From a plasmid: a stretch of DNA of 64,000 nt. Shown here in pieces: positions 2,765 to 13,350 of the stretch. Under the pieces are notes generated by a model that saw only the letters and a program-made list of their open reading frames with translations, made no database searches and was not told the DNA's origin. The position numbers and the translations under genes are program-made. Positions within the stretch are counted from its first letter, which is position 1. Each line of letters starts with the position of its first letter. Location of the stretch: NCBI RefSeq assembly GCF_056712565.1, contig NZ_JBWXXM010000004.1; one strand, given 5' to 3'.

Positions 2765-3574
2765 TTATTTGCTAAGAGCAGCGAATAATCGTTCGAAATC
2801 GATAGTATCTATAGCACGCGTAAGCGCCGGAAGTTCAGCCTCAAAGTACCCGTGTCGATCGTAAAAGAAGGGACCGAAGAGCGAGGCATGTTGGATTCTA
2901 CTTCGCCCCAGCCCGGACACACAGTTAAGCCCATTACCGGCTAAAAGGCTAAAAAACTTCTCTGGATTATCGTGGTAAAGCTGGGAATCAATGGTGGCGG
3001 TTAACTCTTCCATAGGGAAGCACACCCGCCCTGTATCCCAGGGATATTTAGTCCGAAGCATAAACATTGCTTTCAGCAATTCACATTGAGCGCGGATCGC
3101 GTCCGGTTCATAGCCAGATATGGAGACATAAGCCACGTCCCTCATTCCTGCGTCATCTTTGAAAGTCACGATAGAAGTAACATCCAGCTCTTTTTCGAAA
3201 GAGCAAGCAGCATCTACTGGACGCTGAAGTAAATCATTCGACTTAATGCGCTCGAGAATCCCTCCCCACATATCATTTAGATATTCGATATGAGCCAAAA
3301 CCTTATCAAGACACTCTCGTGTAAACCATTCAGTATGCCCGCCACCGACGCTTTTCTCCCACGGCGCATTCCAGGGGAAAAAGGTTGCGTGTAAAGCCCG
3401 CTCAAGATTAACCATTGCCAAACGCGTACCACGATAGACCCGTGAAAGCGCAAAATCGGGACTCACTTGTAGTCCTTTAAACCGTGCCAATGGACCACAT
3501 GAAATGCCGATTTTAAAAGTATCTCCGTTCTCTGGCACCAGAACGTAGAGGTAGTGTTGTTTCTCTTCTTGCAT
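2765..3574 (-). CDS. T5orf172 / GIY-YIG-like domain protein with an uncharacterised C-terminal half
   Basis: The N-terminus YLYVLVPENGDTFKIGIS..RFKGL..LERALHATF..HTEWF fits the T5orf172 (MUG113) pattern. The gene has its own terminator. From memory, P1 has no gene at this position. Confidence 0.6.
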   Translation of the reverse strand: MQEEKQHYLYVLVPENGDTFKIGISCGPLARFKGLQVSPDFALSRVYRGTRLAMVNLERALHATFFPWNAPWEKSVGGGHTEWFTRECLDKVLAHIEYLNDMWGGILERIKSNDLLQRPVDAACSFEKELDVTSIVTFKDDAGMRDVAYVSISGYEPDAIRAQCELLKAMFMLRTKYPWDTGRVCFPMEELTATIDSQLYHDNPEKFFSLLAGNGLNCVSGLGRSRIQHASLFGPFFYDRHGYFEAELPALTRAIDTIDFERLFAALSK

Positions 3575-8552: not shown

Positions 8553-10813
8553 AAGAGCTGTGCTATGGATCTGTTTGCAGTGGAATTGAAGCCGCGAGTA
8601 TTGCCTGGGAACCGTTGGGTATGCGTCCGGCGTGGTTTGCTGAAATCGAGCCTTTTCCATCTGCCGTTCTTGCGCACCGCTGGCCCCATGTCGCCAACCT
8701 TGGCGACATGACAAAACTTGCCAAAAAAGTCCTGGCTGGGGAAATCGAATCCCCTGATGTGCTCGTCGGGGGTACGCCTTGTCAGGCATTCAGTATCGCG
8801 GGCTTACGTGGTGGGCTTGATGATGAACGCGGCGCGCTAACTTTGAAGTATGTGGAGCTTGCAAATGCAATTGACGACAAACGGTCTGAGTCCTTCCTCA
8901 AACCGACAGTTATCGTCTGGGAAAATGTCCCAGGAGTCCTGTCATCGGCAGATAACGCCTTCGGATGTTTCCTTGCCGGATTGGCTGGAGAAGATGCGCC
9001 ATTTGAACCAGGTGATCGACCTGAATCAGGAAAAAGTAACGCGTTCTGGCGGTGGGATGGCAAAACCGGTTGCCATGCTCCAAAGTGGCCGCAGTGTGGT
9101 TGTATTTATGGACCGCAGCGAAAGGTGGCCTGGAGAATCCTTGATGCCCAATACTTCGGAGTGGCACAACGACGCCGACGCGTGTTTGTTGTCGCAAGTG
9201 CTCGAACAGACCTCGATCCCGCAACGGTACTTTTTGAGTTCGAAGGCGTGCGCCGGGATATTGCGCCGAGCCGAAAAAAGAAGGAAATCGCTTCCGCCAT
9301 TATTGCAAATGGCGCTGCAATCAGTGGCGAAAGCCTAAATCCATGTCTACACGCTGACATTCCACCCGGTATGAAATCGACGAAAGCCGTAAACGCTTTC
9401 AGGATGGCAGCATTTGGGGAATATATTGACGATGAAACCGCATCGACAGTAAAGGCAAGAGATTTTAAAGATGCCACTGACCTTGCCGTTTTTAGCAGCA
9501 CAGGAGCAGGTTTTTGGTCAGAAGGGCATGGTACATTGCGGGCACGTGAGCAAGAAAGCCATGAGCATCTTGTTACATTGGCTTTTCCTGAGCGTATGAG
9601 CGGTACACAACATGCTGCAACTAAGAATACTTCACCATCTCTAATGGCTAAAAATCCAACAGCTGTTTGCTATGAAGTAAGAAACGCAGAAGTAGCTGTC
9701 CGCCGTCTTACCCCTGTCGAATGTGAAAGGCTGCAAGGTTTTCCTGATGGGCATACGTTGATCCCGACGGAAAAGCGTAAAAAAGTTAATTCAGATGAAC
9801 TGGCATATCTTCGCAATCACTATCCAGATTTAAGCGAAGAAGAGGCCGCGATGCTTGCAGCTGACGGACCGCGTTACAAAGCGATCGGCAATAGTATGGC
9901 AATACCAGTAATGCGCTGGATTGGCGATCGGATTACTAAGGCCGTATGTCGGCAGAAAGAAGGAAGTGAAACAAAAGAGCGAAAAGTTAAACCAGCGGCA
10001 GAATTCGAACGGTCCATATTCAAATGGGCTGGTGGAAAATTTGGTGTTCTGGAACAAATCTTTCGCTATTTGCCAGAAGGGAAGCGCCTGATTGAACCTT
10101 TCGTTGGTGGCGGAGCTGTCTTCATGAATGCCGGATACCAGGAAAATCTGCTAAATGATGTGAATGCTGACCTGATTAACTTTTACAAGACTCTGCAACG
10201 CGAGGCGCATTCACTTATCACTCTGGCACATCGTTTCTTCCAGGACTATAACACACAGGAAGGATACCTGGCAGTACGGAATGCGTTTAACAAACAAGTC
10301 TATGATGATTTACATCGCGCAGCGGCGTTTTTGTTCCTGAACCGACATTGTTTTAACGGATTGACGCGTTACAACCAGGCCGGTGAGTTCAATGTCGGTT
10401 ATGGGAAGTATAAAACTCCGTATTTCCCATTACAGGAGATGGAAGCCTTCCTCGGTGCGGAAGGGCGGTCTGAGTTTGTATGCGGTGATTTTGCAGCGGT
10501 GATTGAAGCTGCCGGAGAAGGAGATGTCATCTTTTGCGATCCGCCGTATGAACCGCTTCCAAATACAGAGGGATTCACGAACTATTCCGGTCATGACTTT
10601 AAGTTTGAAGAGCAAAAACGCCTGGTGTCTCTGTTGACGGATGCTCATCGTCGAGGTGCAAAGGTTCTCATTACTAACAGTGGCGCGCCAAATATCAGAG
10701 AGCTTTATCATGACAGTGGCTTCAGAGTGGAACCTCTTTTTGCCAGACGTTCTGTGTCTTGTAAGGGGGACACTCGAGGTGTAGCTCATGACGTTTTAGG
10801 TATATTGCTCTAA
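8549..10813 (+). CDS. dmt: Bifunctional DNA methyltransferase (N-terminal C5-cytosine MTase fused to a C-terminal Dam-like N6-adenine MTase)
   Basis: 754 aa. C5 motifs: [22 protein letters not shown] and the QGFP/GNS region. Dam motifs: FKWAGGK and DPPY. Confidence 0.9.
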
Positions 10814-10833
10814 TAAATTTATTAGTGTAATAT
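10804..10833 (+). promoter_or_regulatory. Bipartite C1 operator overlapping a sigma70-like promoter (Op72/Pban-like)
   Basis: ATTGCTCTAATAAATTT overlaps an inverted copy AAATTTATTAGTGTAAT. TTGCTC (-35) and TAATAT (-10) are spaced about 16 nt apart. Confidence 0.7.
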
Positions 10834-10994
10834 CGCCTCAATGAATCGTGATTTATAGAGCGATTTAGCTGTTAGCCGCGACAGGCGCGGCGGTAAGCAT
10901 GGCTGGGCCTAGCCCTCCCAGACAAACCACCGAGTTGCCAGGTTGACCATGCGCCTAAGTGGCAACGCCGAAGTGCGTTACGAGCTTCCAGTTT

Positions 10995-11020
10995 GCCCAT
11001 CTTCGGGTGGGCGTTTTTTT
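10995..11020 (+). terminator. Intrinsic terminator with UUCG tetraloop
   Basis: GCCCATC-TTCG-GGTGGGC followed by G and T7. Confidence 0.8.
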
Positions 11021-11200
11021 CAGGGTTTTCGTCATGGTTAGCGACTTTGCGGCGGTTTAGAAACTGACCATTAAAGTAAATGCAAACGATGATCTGATGA
11101 TGGTAGCGGCCTAAGAAGCCAGATGCCACGGGGTATGAGTCGTCCCCCGTCAAAAAATCGACCGCAGAGTGTCCCCGTCTGTGTATTAGGGAACGGGGAG

Positions 11201-11282
11201 GCACAACAGGTAAGGGCGCTGGTGTGATTAACCAGATGAACGAGAAGGGGCCATCTGTTGGTCAGCGTCCTTTCCTGTTGCG
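11201..11282 (+). ncRNA. Long-stem structured element A (candidate ncRNA or processing hairpin)
   Basis: The 5' arm GCACAACAGGTAAGGGCGCT pairs with the 3' arm AGCGTCCTTTCCTGTTGCG (17 of 19 pairs, including G.U). The 43-nt apical region contains its own hairpin. Confidence 0.5.
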
Positions 11283-11485
11283 TTTTCTTTTCAGCGTAAC
11301 AGCGGTGCTTAACAGCACTTTGGGTACAGTTCCACGAATTTACGGGTATATCCCGTCATGCTGAAGGCGCTAATCACGCTGGAAGCCAGGGTTGTGCATC
11401 CCCTGTTACCGAATTGCAGCCAGGGCGCGGTGCGCCGAAAAGCATACGGAGGTGGAAGCCCTCGCCGGAGACGTACCCGGCAAGT

Positions 11486-11560
11486 GATGGTGTAGCTCAG
11501 CGGTAGAGCAGTTGGCTGTTAACCAACTGGTCGGTGGTTCGAATCCATCCACCATCGCCA
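11486..11560 (+). tRNA. tRNA-Asn (GUU), CCA encoded
   Basis: Hand-folded cloverleaf: acceptor GATGGTG/CACCATC, anticodon loop CTGTTAA, T-loop TTCGAAT. Confidence 0.9.
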
Positions 11561-11562
11561 AT

Positions 11563-11638
11563 GCCGGTTTAGCTCAGTTGGTAGAGCGCCTGCCTTGTAA
11601 GCAGGATGTCAGCGGTTCGAGTCCGTTAACCGGCACCA
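11563..11638 (+). tRNA. tRNA-Thr (UGU), CCA encoded
   Basis: Acceptor GCCGGTT/AACCGGC, anticodon loop CTTGTAA, T-loop TTCGAGT. It starts 2 nt after tRNA-Asn. Confidence 0.9.
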
Positions 11639-11749
11639 ACACAACAGGTAAGGGTATTTTGCGACGTCGGAGATCGCCGTGCTTGGCAGAGGGTTCGAAT
11701 CCCTACGAAGTACCCTTACCGTTGTGATGAATGCGCAGGCTGATGCGCG
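11637..11749 (+). ncRNA. Long-stem element B with an embedded tRNA-like core, followed by a short hairpin
   Basis: An outer stem of 16 bp with a bulged A (ACAACAGGTAAGGGTA/TACCCTTACCGTTGT) encloses GCGA-cgtcGGaga-TCGC (D-arm-like) and AGGG-TTCGAAT-CCCT (T-arm-like). A GCGCA-GGCTGA-TGCGC hairpin follows. Confidence 0.55.
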
Positions 11750-11854
11750 AAAGACATTGCAGCTATTGCGGAAAAGAGCTGTTCGGCGGGGCAATTAAAC
11801 GCCCGTGAGAGTCTGAAATAACCGCAAGCCGGAGATCAGCACCGGTCATCACAA

Positions 11855-11922
11855 CACAACAGGTAAGGGCATTCTCCCTTATGGGGCTTGGCTTAAATGC
11901 ATCGAGTGCTCTTACCGTTGTG
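11855..11922 (+). ncRNA. Long-stem structured element C
   Basis: CACAACAGGTAAGGGCATTC pairs with GAGTGCTCTTACCGTTGTG (with U.G and G.U wobbles). The apical region is 28 nt and contains a CCC-ttat-GGG hairpin. Confidence 0.5.
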
Positions 11923-12058
11923 ATGAAGTGCAGCTCTTTGAAGCAACCAGAAGATAAGCATCTGGCTTCACAACATAAACCGCAGGAACGACCAATAAAC
12001 GGTAGTCCGTATGGAGAACACCCCGTTGAGGAAGAGGCCTGGCCGGAACCGTAACCGG

Positions 12059-12177
12059 CACTACAACGTTGAGAACACTGGCGTAACGGGGTCATATCCC
12101 AATCTACGAATAAATGTTGCGTTGCAGCGTGACAACCAGTGTTCTCAACATTGTGGTGAATGCACAGGCTGATGTGC
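12059..12177 (+). ncRNA. Long-stem structured element D plus a short hairpin
   Basis: A 23-position stem (22 paired): CACTACAACGTTGAGAACACTGG with CCAGTGTTCTCAACATTGTGGTG. The apical module GTAACGGGGTCATATCCCAATCTAC is shared with E. A GCACA-GGCTGA-TGTGC hairpin follows. Confidence 0.6.
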
Positions 12178-12335
12178 CGCAACTACAGTAGTGCGCGCTT
12201 TGCGGGGCTTGCTACAACCCTGTGTCGGAGTTCAGCACCGACCATCACAGTTTGATTCTCTGGCATGAGCATAACGCTGAAATAAGTCCAGTCTGGTGCG
12301 GCCCGATCACCCGCCGTTAGCTCCACGAAACGGAG

Positions 12336-12435
12336 CACGTAACAGGTAAGAGCATTCTCCTGTAACGGGTTCATATCCCAATCTACAGGTCCACCAGGAA
12401 TGCTCTTTCCGTTGCGGTGAATGCGGCTAAGCGCA
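12336..12435 (+). ncRNA. Long-stem structured element E plus a short hairpin
   Basis: CACGTAACAGGTAAGAGCATTC pairs with GAATGCTCTTTCCGTTGCGGTG. The apical hairpin is CCTGTA-acGGGttcatatCCCaatc-TACAGG. Element E differs from D by five double compensatory stem changes. Confidence 0.6.
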
Positions 12436-12565
12436 CGCGGAACAGTAAAAACAATCCTCCTTAATGGTTAAACATTCCGGCGTTAATTGTTAACTGGTTA
12501 ACGTCACCGGGAGGCACTCGGCACCGCAATCTAATAAATATGTCACTTTTATTGAGGGATAACCA

Positions 12566-13000
12566 ATGTTCGGTAAATTGTTCGGCAAGAAAGTCGCTTC
12601 TGCAAAAGTAGAGCTGAAAAAAGTTGAGAATCGCGATCTGATGGAGGCCATCATCGGTGGCTGTTTGTTGGTGTCTGCCGCTGATGGTGAAATCGAAAAA
12701 GAAGAAACAGCGAAACTTGATCAGCTTGTCCGCTCTAATCCGCGTCTTAGTCATTTTGGTAACGAAATTACTGCAACAATTACCCGCTTTACCGAGCAAC
12801 TGGAAGCTGGCTTCCGTGTTGGTCGCATGAATATCCTTCGCGAAATTGAAGATATCAAAAACGATCCAAAAGAAGCGGAAGAAGTATTCGTTAACATGCT
12901 GACAATTGCAGAAGCGGACGGTGAAATCGAGCCAGCAGAACACAAAGTACTGGAAGAAGTAGGCCGTCGTTTAGGTCTTCGTGTGGAAGATTATCTGTAA
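12566..13000 (+). CDS. tciA: TerB-like (tellurite/colicin resistance family) protein
   Basis: 144 aa. Acidic repeats ..AADGEI(E/D)K/PxE.. are typical of TerB, and the position matches P1 tciA. Confidence 0.8.
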   Translation: MFGKLFGKKVASAKVELKKVENRDLMEAIIGGCLLVSAADGEIEKEETAKLDQLVRSNPRLSHFGNEITATITRFTEQLEAGFRVGRMNILREIEDIKNDPKEAEEVFVNMLTIAEADGEIEPAEHKVLEEVGRRLGLRVEDYL

Positions 13001-13274: not shown

Positions 13275-13350
13275 GGCCCTTTAGCTCAGTGGTTAGAGCT
13301 GGCGACTCATAATCGCACGGTCACCGGTTCAAGTCCGGTAGGGGCCACCA
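13275..13350 (+). tRNA. tRNA with CAU anticodon (Ile2/lysidine-type or Met), CCA encoded
   Basis: Acceptor GGCCCTT/AGGGGCC, loop CTCATAA, T-loop TTCAAGT. The P1 counterpart is annotated tRNA-Ile. Confidence 0.85.

What the first reader, a model, noticed from the sequence alone, without database searches (positions are those of the whole stretch)
11637..11749. Element B is a tRNA-like core without an anticodon arm, held in an extended stem that begins inside the tRNA-Thr 3' end
Inside the long stem of unit B the sequence folds as follows:
- TTT
- GCGA-cgtcGGaga-TCGC, a 4-bp stem with a 9-nt loop containing GG, which is D-arm-like
- a 12-nt linker where an anticodon arm would normally be
- AGGG-TTCGAAT-CCCT, with a canonical T-loop sequence
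- 6 nt, followed by the 3' arm of the stem

No anticodon stem-loop, discriminator base or CCA is present.

The outer-stem 5' arm starts at the CA of the tRNA-Thr CCA end, so tRNA-Thr 3' maturation and formation of this structure are physically coupled. The sequence preceding unit D (CCGTAACCGGCACTACAAC) also resembles the tRNA-Thr 3' end plus junction (CCGTTAACCGGCACCAACACAAC). This suggests the array arose by duplication of a unit consisting of a tRNA plus a hairpin.

The element could be a decayed tRNA gene. It could equally be a functional tRNA mimic, acting as a decoy or substrate for tRNA-modifying or tRNA-targeting enzymes.
Basis: partly seen in the sequence, partly recalled or inferred. 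Interest (0 to 1): 0.6.

Follow-up and report, generated by a model that had tools for sequence, protein, structure and literature searches.

The report
tRNA-like cargo on phage RNA stalk
Element B of this P1-type phage is a real, strongly conserved tRNA mimic that keeps the tRNA acceptor and T arm but has no anticodon, and it belongs to an apparently undescribed modular array of phage RNAs that also holds a tmRNA-like tag-coding RNA.

Summary
At 11640-11726 a 21-bp stem (22 nt on the 5' side, one bulged A) encloses a core with a canonical T arm (AGGG-TTCGAAT-CCCT). The core also has a GG-containing D-like segment and no anticodon arm. ARAGORN and every Rfam model fail to call it.

The window is a P1-type phage or plasmid, and B lies in the leader of the ban operon. 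The same core occurs in 33 distinct sequence contexts in P1-like, lambdoid and Uetakevirus genomes. The stem covaries there (14 of 23 pairs) and the core stays essentially invariant, so B is selected rather than decaying.

B is one "cargo" among more than 40 different inserts held by conserved stalk arms, and several other cargos also end in a T arm.

Upstream, at 11023-11204, lies a tmRNA-like coding module with resume codon GCA and tag ANDDLMMVAA. It was matched in 868 phage records and was not annotated as an RNA gene in any record I inspected. In other phages B sits directly beside this module.

My best reading, with modest confidence, is that B is a tmRNA-TLD-like top-half tRNA mimic. It would be released by RNase III and RNase P and would engage SmpB or other readers of the tRNA elbow. 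A pure processing-signal role is nearly as likely.

The parts
11563..11638 (+). tRNA-Thr(UGU). Its CCA end (11636-11638) directly abuts the stalk of unit B.
   Evidence: ARAGORN; Rfam tRNA 74.9 bits.
11640..11661 (+). 5' arm of the B stalk (CACAAC-A-GGTAAGGGTATTTTG). It acts as an extended acceptor-like strand.
   Evidence: MFE fold. In 29 relatives, 14 of 23 stalk pairs show compensatory double changes, and 0 of 500 shuffles reach this.
11661..11677 (+). D-like segment, GCGA-CGTCGGAGA-TCGC. It is either a 3-4 bp hairpin with a GG loop, or a 14-nt single-stranded D-loop analogue like that of a tmRNA TLD.
   Evidence: Sequence. It is invariant in the relatives found through the T-arm half only. 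The swi2-type cargo shows a compensated stem, UGG...CUA, with the same CGGAGA loop.
11676..11687 (+). Stunted 4-bp hairpin GCCG-UGCU-UGGC, at the position of the anticodon arm or P2a stem. It overlaps the D-like stem by 2 nt, so the two are alternatives.
   Evidence: RNAalifold consensus. Pairs change G-C to G.U (14/14) and A-U to G.U (16/10) while staying paired.
11690..11704 (+). T arm AGGG-TTCGAAT-CCCT with a canonical T loop, stacked on the stalk (G11689.A11705 could be a fifth pair).
   Evidence: Other stalk cargos carry covarying T stems (GCGG/CCGC, AAGG/CCUU, UGGG/CCCA) at the same position.
11706..11726 (+). 3' arm of the B stalk (CGAAGTACCCTTACCGTTGTG).
11023..11204 (+). tmRNA-like coding module upstream in the same operon. 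It starts GGGTTTTCG and has a helix ending just before the resume codon. It also has a stop-codon hairpin, a pseudoknot (GUCG 11139-11142 with CGAC 11159-11162) and a terminal hairpin (11173-11198).
   Evidence: Weak tmRNA CM hits. 41 distinct variants were recovered. The pseudoknot and helices covary. Relaxed ARAGORN finds the tag.
11082..11114 (+). Tag reading frame GCA AAC GAT GAT CTG ATG ATG GTA GCG GCC TAA, giving ANDDLMMVAA*. There is no in-frame ATG, GTG or TTG between the upstream in-frame TAG and GCA.
   Evidence: All 30 variants have 10 codons followed by a stop. Entropy by codon position is 0.56/0.43/0.96.
11202..11282 (+). Stalk unit A, with the same arms and a cargo that is not tRNA-like.
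11722..11853 (+). Inter-stalk module M1 (GTGATGAATGC ... CCGGTCATCAC), of the STnc100/PasD type. About 98% identical stretches occur in lambdoid and Stx phages.
11855..11922 (+). Stalk unit C. Its cargo (CCCTTATGGGGCTTGGCTTAAATGCA) recurs in Felix O1 on an unrelated AT-rich stalk.
12059..12158 (+). Stalk unit D, with a divergent stalk sequence.
   Evidence: inverted repeat I1.
12338..12416 (+). Stalk unit E. It shares a 25-nt cargo motif with unit D.
   Evidence: D5, I9.
12413..12528 (+). Inter-stalk module M4, a sub-threshold STnc100 match lying just before tciA.
   Evidence: 39.8 bits against a gathering score of 47.

Best explanation
Unit B is a conserved 'top-half' tRNA mimic. An acceptor-like helix stacks on a canonical T arm. 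A GG-containing D-loop analogue is present, and only a 4-bp stub sits where the anticodon arm or tmRNA P2 helix would be. This is the architecture of a tmRNA tRNA-like domain (TLD) rather than of a tRNA.

B is presented at the tip of a long stalk in a polycistronic non-coding leader of the C1-controlled ban operon of a P1-type phage. The gene order is: dicF-like sRNA, tmRNA-like tag module, stalk A, tRNA-Asn, tRNA-Thr, B, further modules and stalks, tciABC, tRNA, ban.

Proposed mechanism (inferred, not shown):
1. The stalk is cut by RNase III.
2. The tRNA-like tip is trimmed by tRNA-processing enzymes (RNase P on the 5' side; RNase BN/Z or exonucleases on the 3' side).
3. This also frees the 3' end of tRNA-Thr.
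4. The released small RNA works through its tRNA elbow. Most probably it is the TLD-type partner or decoy of the phage's tmRNA-like system, binding SmpB.

Such binding would either support use of the phage tag template or titrate host trans-translation, as reported for TLD-only RNAs.

Shown: the structure, its conservation, the modular context, and the association with the tag module. Inferred: the processing enzymes, SmpB binding and the physiological effect.
For: - Anatomy and significance.
- B is not an ordinary tRNA.
- Conservation: the same core occurs in 33 distinct contexts. Every genuine hit to the D half carries the same T arm.
- Stalk covariation with an invariant core: 14 of 23 pairs compensated, including wholly different stalks in L329 and L251.
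- TLD-like inner fold: a 14-nt single-stranded GG segment plus a 4-bp stub whose pairs exchange G-C with G.U.
- A class of stalk cargos ends in a covarying T arm stacked on the stalk. T-arm hairpins occur in 4 of 46 cargos against 0.055 in shuffles. One cargo (L052) has the GUGGGUUCAACUCCCAC T arm, which matches the tmRNA model.
- A tmRNA-like tag module lies in the same operon.
- B lies directly downstream of that module (+215 to +217) in L158, L295, L333, L251, L259, L314, L330 and L321. It lies directly upstream (-33 and -53) in L113, L303 and L165.
- Literature precedent: the TLD-only tmRNA of phage DS6A, and a similar molecule that inhibits tmRNA whether or not it is chargeable (PMC4131195, PMC11915505).
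Against: - There is no G3.U70, no discriminator and no CCA. The conserved wobble pair is U.G in the opposite orientation and is a feature of all stalks, so B cannot be charged by AlaRS as encoded.
- The tag module sits 5' of the acceptor-like stem, not between the D and T sides, so the topology is not that of any known one-piece or two-piece tmRNA.
- About half of the module contexts found without reference to B have no orphan T arm nearby.
- B also occurs without an adjacent module, for example in BUCT554.
- No covariance model for tmRNA scores B.
- The inner stems never vary within the B type, so their pairing is supported only by more distant cargos.
- SmpB binding, RNase III cleavage and RNase P cleavage are all untested.
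Confidence: 0.35

Rival explanations
1. B is purely a processing punctuation mark. Its tRNA top half recruits RNase P, together with RNase BN/Z, so that the polycistronic RNA is cut precisely next to tRNA-Thr or next to the tag module. The B RNA itself would have no function after release. Precedents are the mascRNA/MALAT1 system and P1's own C4 RNA precursor.
For: - RNase P and RNase Z need only the acceptor/T-arm helix and the elbow, and those are exactly the parts B keeps.
- B directly abuts tRNA-Thr in P1-type genomes and directly flanks the tag module elsewhere.
- Diverse, non-homologous T-arm cargos occupy the same position. This suggests that generic tRNA-likeness is what is selected.
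- In some Felix O1-like phages a true tRNA or another tRNA-like RNA occupies the equivalent downstream place.
- The weak mascRNA-model alignment is an analogy only.
- That P1 C4 RNA is matured by RNase P is from my own knowledge (Hartmann et al. 1995).
Against: - The stalk alone should suffice for RNase III cutting, and most stalks carry cargos that are not tRNA-like.
- The B core is invariant in sequence, not merely in structure, across contexts whose stalks have diverged completely. This is more than a generic cleavage signal needs.
- Pairing between leader and trailer normally hinders RNase P.
Confidence: 0.25
2. B is a decoy or substrate for enzymes or defence systems that recognise tRNA shape (tRNA-modifying enzymes, or toxins aimed at the acceptor end or T loop).
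For: - The elbow elements (GG and UUCGAAU) are conserved.
- B is embedded among phage tRNA genes. Phage tRNAs have been proposed to counter tRNA-targeting defences (PMC10264068; title and abstract only, seen).
Against: - B has no anticodon loop, which is the target of most known tRNA nucleases.
- B has no CCA end, which is the target of CCA-modifying toxins.
- No linked defence or anti-defence gene was identified.
Confidence: 0.12
3. Only the stalk matters, for example as an RNase III site or a recombination joint. On this view B is a decaying tRNA gene fragment trapped as a neutral loop.
For: - Stalk arms are far more widespread than any one cargo, and cargos are swapped freely.
- The Madison and KP591P1 cargos look like degenerate type-II tRNAs.
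Against: - The core is essentially invariant in 33 contexts while the stalks covary or are replaced.
- The same cargo is retained on unrelated stalks. The B core sits on an unrelated stalk in L329, and cargo C recurs in Felix O1.
- This is the opposite of neutral decay.
Confidence: 0.12
4. After processing and CCA addition, B becomes a chargeable mini-tRNA-like RNA. It would then act on the ribosome as the acceptor piece of a true phage tmRNA.
For: - Phage T4 tRNAs that lack an encoded CCA are matured in E. coli by RNase BN and the CCA-adding enzyme (my own knowledge).
- The tag frame is under coding selection, so something must deliver it to ribosomes.
- Felix O1-like phages carry, just after the module, a tRNA-like RNA with G3.U70, A73 and an encoded CCA.
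Against: - B has no alanine identity pair.
- Its 3' strand is buried in a long helix.
- No base pairing that would tether B to the module was found.
- The TLD halves proposed by relaxed ARAGORN are artefacts of the repeated stalk arms or of promoter DNA.
Confidence: 0.08
5. B is a Y-RNA-like (YrlA) element that tethers Ro/Rsr.
For: It has a long terminal stem plus a tRNA-like module, and this superficially resembles YrlA.
Against: - The Rfam YrlA model does not hit B. The only weak hit lies on the real tRNAs.
- The order of elements is wrong. In YrlA the long stem replaces the anticodon stem, whereas here it extends the acceptor stem.
- E. coli lacks Rsr (my own knowledge).
Confidence: 0.03
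6. The region encodes proteins on the minus strand (Plp and Upl, as annotated in P1), and the apparent RNA structure is incidental.
For: The P1 reference annotates plp across B, and BUCT554 annotates a hypothetical CDS there.
Against: - The ORFs have no Pfam family.
- Relatives differ by 1-nt and 3-nt indels inside the core and by cassette swaps that destroy any frame.
- Substitutions are compensatory in helices.
Confidence: 0.02

Closest known systems
TLD-only ('CDS-less') tmRNA variants, e.g. mycobacteriophage DS6A
   Same: A small phage-encoded RNA made of little more than an acceptor helix, a D-loop analogue, a short stub and a T arm, with no anticodon and no tag. Such RNAs are reported to inhibit tmRNA, perhaps by titrating SmpB (PMC4131195, PMC11915505).
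   Different: B has no G3.U70 and no encoded CCA. Its acceptor helix continues into a stalk more than 20 bp long. No tmRNA model detects it, and the tag template is a separate module.
Two-piece (circularly permuted) tmRNA
   Same: [quoted passage not shown] The resume region AUAAAUGCAAACGA of the phage module matches the consensus of the permuted-tmRNA model.
   Different: In two-piece tmRNA the coding piece supplies the 5' acceptor strand, and the pieces pair through P1 and P2. Here both acceptor-like strands flank B itself, and no tether to the module was found.
mascRNA/MALAT1, and the P1/P7 C4 RNA precursor (tRNA-like RNase P processing signals)
   Same: A tRNA-like fold embedded in a longer transcript that serves tRNA-processing enzymes. 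P1 already uses RNase P in this way for C4 (my own knowledge).
   Different: These are single-purpose signals. They have no conserved long stalk, they are not part of a cassette array, and they lack B's sequence-invariant core.
RNase III processing stalks (rRNA operons, T7 early RNA)
   Same: A leader-trailer helix of about 20 bp or more encloses a functional RNA in a polycistronic transcript.
   Different: Here the arm sequences themselves are conserved across unrelated phage families, and the enclosed RNAs are short (25-130 nt) and interchangeable.
STnc100 / PasD prophage sRNAs (RF02076)
   Same: The modules between the stalks match this family. They have the same prophage late-region or early-leader neighbourhoods (bioRxiv 10.64898/2026.05.13.724894).
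   Different: B is not part of that family. The stalk-cargo organisation is not part of its description.
YrlA (bacterial Y RNA)
   Same: A long stem combined with a tRNA-like domain that lacks an anticodon.
   Different: The topology differs (the stem extends the acceptor, not the anticodon stem). There is no model hit and no Ro partner in E. coli.

Membership tests
tRNA (RF00005) | Cloverleaf with an anticodon arm, detectable by tRNA covariance or heuristic models | tested here: not met
   ARAGORN finds only Asn, Thr and Met. RF00005 gives no hit on B at E<=10, even in a 106-nt search.
tRNA (RF00005) | T arm with a canonical T loop stacked on the acceptor helix | tested here: met
   AGGG-UUCGAAU-CCCU at 11690-11704, separated from the stalk by one nucleotide.
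tRNA (RF00005) | 7-bp acceptor stem with a discriminator and a 3' CCA (encoded or added) | tested here: not met
   The helix continues for 21 bp. The bases after the would-be position 72 are C-CCU, with no CCA. Post-transcriptional addition is not testable here.
tmRNA tRNA-like domain | Acceptor stem with G3.U70 and a 3' ACCA for alanine charging | tested here: not met
   Counted from the T arm, pair 3:70 is U.G (the reverse orientation) in the window and in BUCT554. This wobble is a general stalk feature.
tmRNA tRNA-like domain | No anticodon arm; an unpaired D-loop analogue with GG; a T arm; a helix (P2) in place of the anticodon stem | tested here: met
   The consensus fold shows a 14-nt single-stranded CGACGUCGGAGAUC, a 4-bp stub and a T arm. 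The alternative GCGA/UCGC stem cannot be excluded.
tmRNA tRNA-like domain | Covalent or base-paired link to an mRNA-like domain that has a resume codon and a tag | tested here: inconclusive
   A tag module lies in the same operon, about 440 nt upstream of B's stalk (module end 11204, stalk start 11640). It is directly adjacent to B in 11 other loci. Its position, 5' or 3' of the whole B hairpin, is not the tmRNA topology, and no tether was found.
tmRNA tRNA-like domain | Recognised by tmRNA covariance models or by ARAGORN | tested here: not met
   No tmRNA family hits B. Default ARAGORN finds none. Only at -ps85 does it report the tag, with spurious TLD halves.
tmRNA tRNA-like domain | Binds SmpB | not testable with these tools
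   Needs EMSA or CLIP.
YrlA / Y RNA (RF02553) | Model match, with a Ro-binding stem that replaces the anticodon stem | tested here: not met
   The only YrlA hit (22 bits) lies on tRNA-Asn/Thr, not on B, and there is none. The element order D-like then T arm makes the stalk an acceptor extension.
RNase III processing stalk | A largely regular duplex of about 20 bp or more flanking the processed RNA | tested here: met
   21 bp with one bulged A in the window. The pairing is conserved by covariation.
RNase III processing stalk | Cleavage by RNase III | not testable with these tools
   Needs rnc mutants or an in vitro assay.
STnc100 (RF02076) | Model match at the gathering score | tested here: not met
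   B has no match. The neighbouring module at 12413-12528 scores 39.8 against a gathering score of 47. A related module in phage Madison passes at 53.6.

The most novel reading that the evidence does not exclude
P1 and hundreds of other enterobacterial phages may encode a split, 'headless' tmRNA system. The groups involved are the Felix O1 group, Vi01/Ackermannviridae, N4-like phages, lambdoid phages and several siphophages.

One part is a tag-template RNA with phage-specific degrons (ANDDLMMVAA, ANEEMYLAVA and others). It lacks an acceptor stem and a true T arm. The other part is a set of separate, non-chargeable TLD-like cargos such as B.

Together they would reprogramme or hijack host trans-translation. 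One route is SmpB-guided loading of the phage template onto stalled ribosomes, followed by decoding of GCA by ordinary tRNA-Ala. Another is replacement of the host tag by a phage tag. Neither mechanism has a known precedent.
Probability: 0.2. Interest if true: 0.9.

Novelty: new variant of a known kind. Interest (0 to 1): 0.68.

Why it matters
If B is a functional top-half tRNA/TLD mimic, then the best-studied plasmid prophage, P1, carries an overlooked RNA system in a region that is currently annotated as two doubtful minus-strand ORFs (plp and upl).

The context matters more than B itself. A tmRNA-like tag template under coding selection is not annotated as an RNA gene in any of the phage records I inspected, out of 868 with a match. 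It sits in a cassette-like array of stalk-presented small RNAs shared by unrelated phage families.

This would open direct tests of three questions:
- How do phages manipulate ribosome rescue and SsrA-type proteolysis?
- How are polycistronic tRNA/sRNA transcripts of phages matured?
- How are small-RNA cassettes exchanged between phages?

It would also correct the annotation of many phage and prophage genomes, including those of Stx-phage relatives.

Tried and rejected
- Ordinary tRNA with a missed anticodon arm: rejected.
- YrlA/Y RNA: rejected on the lack of a model hit and on topology.
- attP-type tRNA 3' fragment: rejected. There is no 3' acceptor/CCA, B lies in the middle of transcribed arrays, and it is present in non-integrating phages.
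- Box C/D (K-turn) reading of GUGAUGA...CUGA after the stalk: dropped, because units D and E have GGUGAAU instead.
- Integron attC-like reading of the arms: the core does not fit GTTRRRY.
- B as the acceptor piece of a permuted tmRNA: the element order is wrong, since the T arm would have to precede the acceptor hairpin.
- Acceptor pairing between the module's 5' end (GGGUUUUCG) and B's 3' strand: it looks possible in P1 only and fails in L158 and KP591P1.
- A P2-like long-range helix closing the module: candidate pairs differ between lineages and clash with the pseudoknot, so this stays unresolved.
An earlier attempt timed out.
- Relaxed ARAGORN 'tmRNA' calls: the tag is right, but the tRNA halves fall in promoter DNA or exploit the repeated stalk arms.
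- Felix O1 'ssrA', mentioned in genome announcements (PMC4319497, PMC4392139): ARAGORN here finds none at the default threshold in the first 45 kb of the Felix O1 record (NC_005282), which contains the tRNA region; the other half of the genome was not scanned.
- One literature search used poor terms and was wasted.
- The scan of one genome per bacterial species found the B core only once. B is therefore confined to mobile elements of a few strains.
Full report
**What the window is.** Megablast of 10800-12600 shows a P1-type phage or plasmid (96.9-99.1% identity to P1, RCS47 and JL22). In the P1 reference the stretch is the leader of the C1-controlled ban operon. The order there is Pban and operators, a 'dicF-like region', tRNA-Asn, tRNA-Thr, then tciA-tciB-tciC, tRNA-Ile2 and ban. 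The about 900 bp after tRNA-Thr are annotated only as two minus-strand ORFs, plp and upl. A newer P1 record annotates neither.

**Checking the observation.**
- tRNA-Thr ends with CCA at 11636-11638.
- From 11640, CACAAC-A-GGTAAGGGTATTTTG pairs with CGAAGTACCCTTACC-GTTGTG (11706-11726).
- Inside lie GCGA-CGTCGGAGA-TCGC, a 12-nt linker, and AGGG-TTCGAAT-CCCT.

The MFE fold of 11630-11760 forms the long stem, with z = -3.7 and no shuffle as stable. The 11-mer GGTTCGAATCC occurs twice in 64 kb, once in tRNA-Asn and once in B, against 0.01 expected.

Three details need correction.
- The bases after the T arm are part of the stem, through G.U pairs.
- The hairpin at 11733-11749 belongs to the next module.
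- The overlap with the tRNA CCA is 2 bp beyond an A.A mismatch and is not conserved in relatives.

Energy alone prefers another inner pairing (-39.7 against -32.6 kcal/mol).

**It is not a tRNA that was missed.** ARAGORN finds nothing at B. Rfam at gathering thresholds and Rfam at E<=10 on 2.8 kb also find nothing. On 106 nt the best Rfam results are mascRNA at 14 bits (E = 1.2) and tRNA-Sec at 14 bits (E = 1.5). RF00005, YrlA and all tmRNA families are silent on B.

**Conservation.** Blastn finds B in P1-like phages and in 641 plasmid records. It also finds B at 88% identity, with compensatory stem changes, in the Uetakevirus BUCT554.

Pattern scans of IMG/VR, using either half of the core, recovered 33 distinct sequence contexts. 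All 103 genuine matches to the D-like half carry the same T arm. The 67 matches without it are chance hits in GC-rich coding DNA.

In an alignment of 29 distinct sequences (A1) the stalk has 23 pairs:
- 14 show changes on both sides that keep pairing.
- 90% of cells are paired, against 33-55% when the partners are slid.
- 0 of 500 shuffles reach the observed covariation.

In L329, L251 and L334 the stalk sequence is largely or wholly different, yet the core is unchanged. The D-like and T stems never vary within this set. That shows strong sequence constraint but says nothing about their pairing. Each scan fixed one half of the core, so only the other half is an unbiased observation.

RNAalifold keeps the stalk and the T arm and proposes a 4-bp stub, GCCR-NNNN-YGGY. 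Its pairs switch between G-C and G.U (14/14) and between A-U and G.U (16/10). This leaves CGACGUCGGAGAUC single-stranded.

A covariance model built from A1 aligned more distant cargos. Their T stems covary (AGGG/CCCU, GCGG/CCGC, AAGG/CCUU, UGGG/CCCA), always at the 3' end of the cargo and stacked on the stalk. The swi2-type cargo has a compensated D-like stem (UGG...CUA) around the same CGGAGA loop.

**B is one cargo in a modular array.** Scanning for the 5' arm (ACAGGTAAGAGCAT) gave dozens of loci. In them the arms ACAACAGGTAAGAGCATTG and CAGTGCTCTTTCCGTTGTGGTGAATGCGCAGGCTGATGCGC enclose more than 40 unrelated inserts of 25-130 nt.

The window has five such stalks: A 11202-11282, B, C 11855-11922, D 12059-12158 and E 12338-12416. 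Cargos are conserved independently of their stalks. The cargo of unit C recurs in Felix O1 on an AT-rich stalk of unrelated sequence.

T-arm-like hairpins occur in 4 of 46 distinct cargos from this scan, which did not select for cargo type. Shuffled cargos give 0.055.

The slots between stalks hold real tRNAs, or tRNA-shaped modules that begin GGUGAAUGC and end CCGG-loop-CCGG-CCACCAC. These modules match STnc100 (39.8 bits at 12413-12528; 53.6 bits in phage Madison). STnc100 is a prophage sRNA family recently linked to PasD (bioRxiv 10.64898/2026.05.13.724894).

All 5' arms are complementary to all 3' arms, so alternative registers are possible, such as a 3' arm pairing across a module with the next 5' arm. 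This explains why every module ends in CAC(C/U)A followed by a stalk. It also explains why the sequence before unit D resembles the tRNA-Thr 3' end. The array is therefore a cassette system, not a duplicated tRNA-plus-hairpin unit.

**A tmRNA-like tag module in the same operon.** While reading relatives I noticed the stretch 11023-11204, just after the dicF-like terminator (10994-11020). It contains GCA AAC GAT GAT CTG ATG ATG GTA GCG GCC TAA, which translates to ANDDLMMVAA* (11082-11114). The E. coli SsrA tag, from memory, is ANDENYALAA.

Blastn with the KP591P1 version matched 868 phage records. The groups represented, with loci checked, are:
- P1-type phages
- Ackermannviridae (Vi01, Madison)
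- Felixounavirus (wV8, Felix O1)
- Erwinia Kolesnikvirus
- N4-like Gamaleyavirus
- siphophages (KP591P1, swi2)
- lambdoid HK633, where it sits between PR'/tR' and the holin gene

From the fetched loci I extracted 41 distinct modules. Their tags were ANEEMYLAVA, ANDDVVLMAA, ANDNTFLAVA, ANDNVFLAVA, ANEEAYLMVA, ANDAQFLAVA, ANDEQFLAVA, ANDDLMLMAA, ANDTQYLAVA and others.

All 30 distinct tag regions have exactly ten codons followed by a stop (TAA 28 times, TAG once, TGA once). Third codon positions are about twice as variable as first and second positions (0.96 against 0.56 and 0.43 bits). In the two lineages I checked by hand (the P1-type window and KP591P1) an in-frame TAG lies upstream and no ATG, GTG or TTG precedes GCA.

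The alignment shows tmRNA-style elements with covariation:
- a helix that ends a few bases before the resume codon;
- a hairpin holding the stop codon (CUGG/CCAG, CUGA/UCAG, AUGG/CCAU);
- an H-type pseudoknot whose second stem changes as GUCG/CGAC, CCGA/UCGG, CCAG/CUGG, CCAA/UUGG, CUAG/CUAG and UCUCCA/UGGAG.

Rfam tmRNA models touch the region weakly. The permuted-tmRNA consensus reads ...UAAAUGCAAACGA..., as the phage modules do. ARAGORN at a relaxed threshold reports the same tags, but its tRNA halves are artefacts.

The module has no acceptor strands and no true T arm. In promoter-proximal copies it starts at about AGUUUUCG.

None of the phage records listed in the blast tables (60 of the 868 matched, 60 of the 264) annotates a tmRNA or any other RNA gene at the module, and none of the 25 listed E. 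coli RefSeq matches does either. No paper in the searchable library contains the tag peptides. tmRNA surveys list phage tmRNAs mainly from mycobacteriophages and marine phages (PMC4131195, PMC11915505, PMC9004378).

**Link between B and the module.** In the window the two are about 440 nt apart in one operon (module end 11204, stalk start 11640), separated by stalk A and two tRNAs.

In other genomes the same B core lies in the first stalk directly after the module. The T arm is at +215 to +217 in L158, L295, L333, L251, L259, L314, L330 and L321. In L113, L303 and L165 it lies in the stalk directly before the module, at -33 and -53. KP591P1, Madison and swi2 have other T-arm cargos at the same downstream place.

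The link is not obligatory. About half of the module contexts found without reference to B have no orphan T arm within -400 to +800. BUCT554 has B without a module.

**How it most likely works.**

Shown:
- B is a selected top-half tRNA mimic on a covarying stalk.
- It belongs to a cassette array co-transcribed with tRNAs.
- It is preferentially a neighbour of a tag template that is under coding selection.

Inferred:
- The stalk is an RNase III site.
- The tRNA-like tip is handled by RNase P and by RNase BN/Z or exonucleases, which would also trim tRNA-Thr.
- The released RNA acts through its elbow.

I favour a TLD-type role, meaning SmpB binding as a partner or decoy of the phage tmRNA-like system. 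Four reasons support this:
- The inner architecture matches a TLD: a single-stranded GG segment, a stub and a T arm.
- B recurs next to the tag module.
- One sister cargo (L052) has a T arm that matches the tmRNA model. Its T loop, UUCAACU, is also that of E. coli ssrA as I recall the sequence.
- TLD-only RNAs are known in phage DS6A and are reported to inhibit tmRNA irrespective of charging (PMC4131195).

Confidence is only about 0.35. The identity pair and CCA are absent, the topology differs from any known tmRNA, and no tether to the module was found.

The nearest rival, at about 0.25, is that B is merely an RNase P/Z punctuation signal. Lesser rivals are a decoy for tRNA-directed enzymes or defences, a neutral tRNA remnant, a CCA-added chargeable mini-tRNA, a Y RNA, and the minus-strand ORF plp. 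Against plp, there is no Pfam family, and indels and cassette swaps break any frame.

**Comparison with known systems and novelty.** In how it works, B is closest to TLD-only tmRNAs and to tRNA-like processing signals (mascRNA, the P1 C4 precursor). It is a member of none of them. The defining tests for tRNA, tmRNA and YrlA were run and were not met, apart from the T arm and the TLD-like layout.

I rate B as a new variant of a known kind, the tRNA/TLD mimic. The stalk-cargo array and the headless tag module appear to be undescribed and are the more surprising result. Subscription literature could not be searched, so prior description cannot be excluded.

Noticed in passing
window 11023-11204 (tag ORF 11082-11114): A tmRNA-like coding module with resume codon GCA and tag ANDDLMMVAA*. 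It also has a stop-codon hairpin and a covarying pseudoknot, but no acceptor stem or T arm. Homologues were matched in 868 phage records of many families and were not annotated as an RNA gene in any record I inspected. The tag shows codon-level selection.
   Followed up: partly
window 11202-11282, 11855-11922, 12059-12158, 12338-12416, and loci L013-L132: Conserved complementary stalk arms (ACAACAGGTAAGAGCATTG / CAGTGCTCTTTCCGTTGTG) enclose more than 40 unrelated cargos. Every 5' arm can pair with every 3' arm, so the array has alternative folding registers and probably recombines at the arms.
   Followed up: partly
window 11722-11853, 12155-12250, 12413-12528: tRNA-shaped inter-stalk modules (GGUGAAUGC-hairpin ... 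CCGG-loop-CCGG-CCACCAC) related to STnc100/PasD prophage sRNAs. The stretch 11715-11857 is about 98% identical to stretches in lambdoid and Stx2 phages, where it lies downstream of the repressor gene (mEp460).
   Followed up: partly
window 10925-11026: The 'dicF-like region' of the P1 annotation ends in a strong intrinsic terminator (10994-11020). It lies directly after Pban and its C1 operators (inverted repeat 10802-10833). Downstream RNAs therefore need read-through or another promoter.
   Followed up: no
window 11609-12374, minus strand (plp and upl of P1): The annotated minus-strand ORFs overlap the structured RNA array and have no Pfam family. Indels and cassette swaps among relatives break their frames, so they are probably spurious gene calls.
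   Followed up: partly
L010 1664-1748 (wV8); L421 25951-26033 (Felix O1): Just after the tag module, Felix O1-like phages carry an unannotated tRNA-like RNA. It has C1-G72, G2-C71, G3.U70, A73 and an encoded CCA, which is the alanine identity set. It also has a CUUCUAA anticodon-like loop and no normal D arm. In a sister genome (L232) a normal tRNA-Arg(UCU) sits there instead.
   Followed up: partly
L421 25882-25945 and L210, compared with window 11855-11922: The cargo of unit C (CCCUUAUGGGGCUUGGCUUAAAUGCA) is conserved between P1-type and Felix O1-type phages on stalks of unrelated sequence. This implies a function for that cargo too.
   Followed up: no
L052 2436-2542: A lambdoid late-leader stalk carries a cargo with a single-stranded GG segment, a short hairpin and the T arm GUGGGUUCAACUCCCAC. 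This T arm matches the tmRNA model (12 bits) and is a second candidate TLD-only cargo.
   Followed up: partly
L011 1900-2400 (PhAPEC5); L012 1340-1430 (Hena2): Several further unannotated mini tRNA-like elements end in an encoded CCA. One is about 57 nt long, with an acceptor, one hairpin and a T arm. ARAGORN does not call them.
   Followed up: no
window 13275-13350: ARAGORN calls this gene tRNA-Met(CAU). In P1 it is annotated as tRNA-Ile2 (ileX-like, lysidine-dependent).
   Followed up: no
L005 950-4060 (Klebsiella phage Madison): About 3 kb with no annotated gene is filled with structured RNA modules: the tag module, a T-arm cargo, a full-length STnc100 match at 3353-3567, and other T-arm elements.
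   Followed up: no
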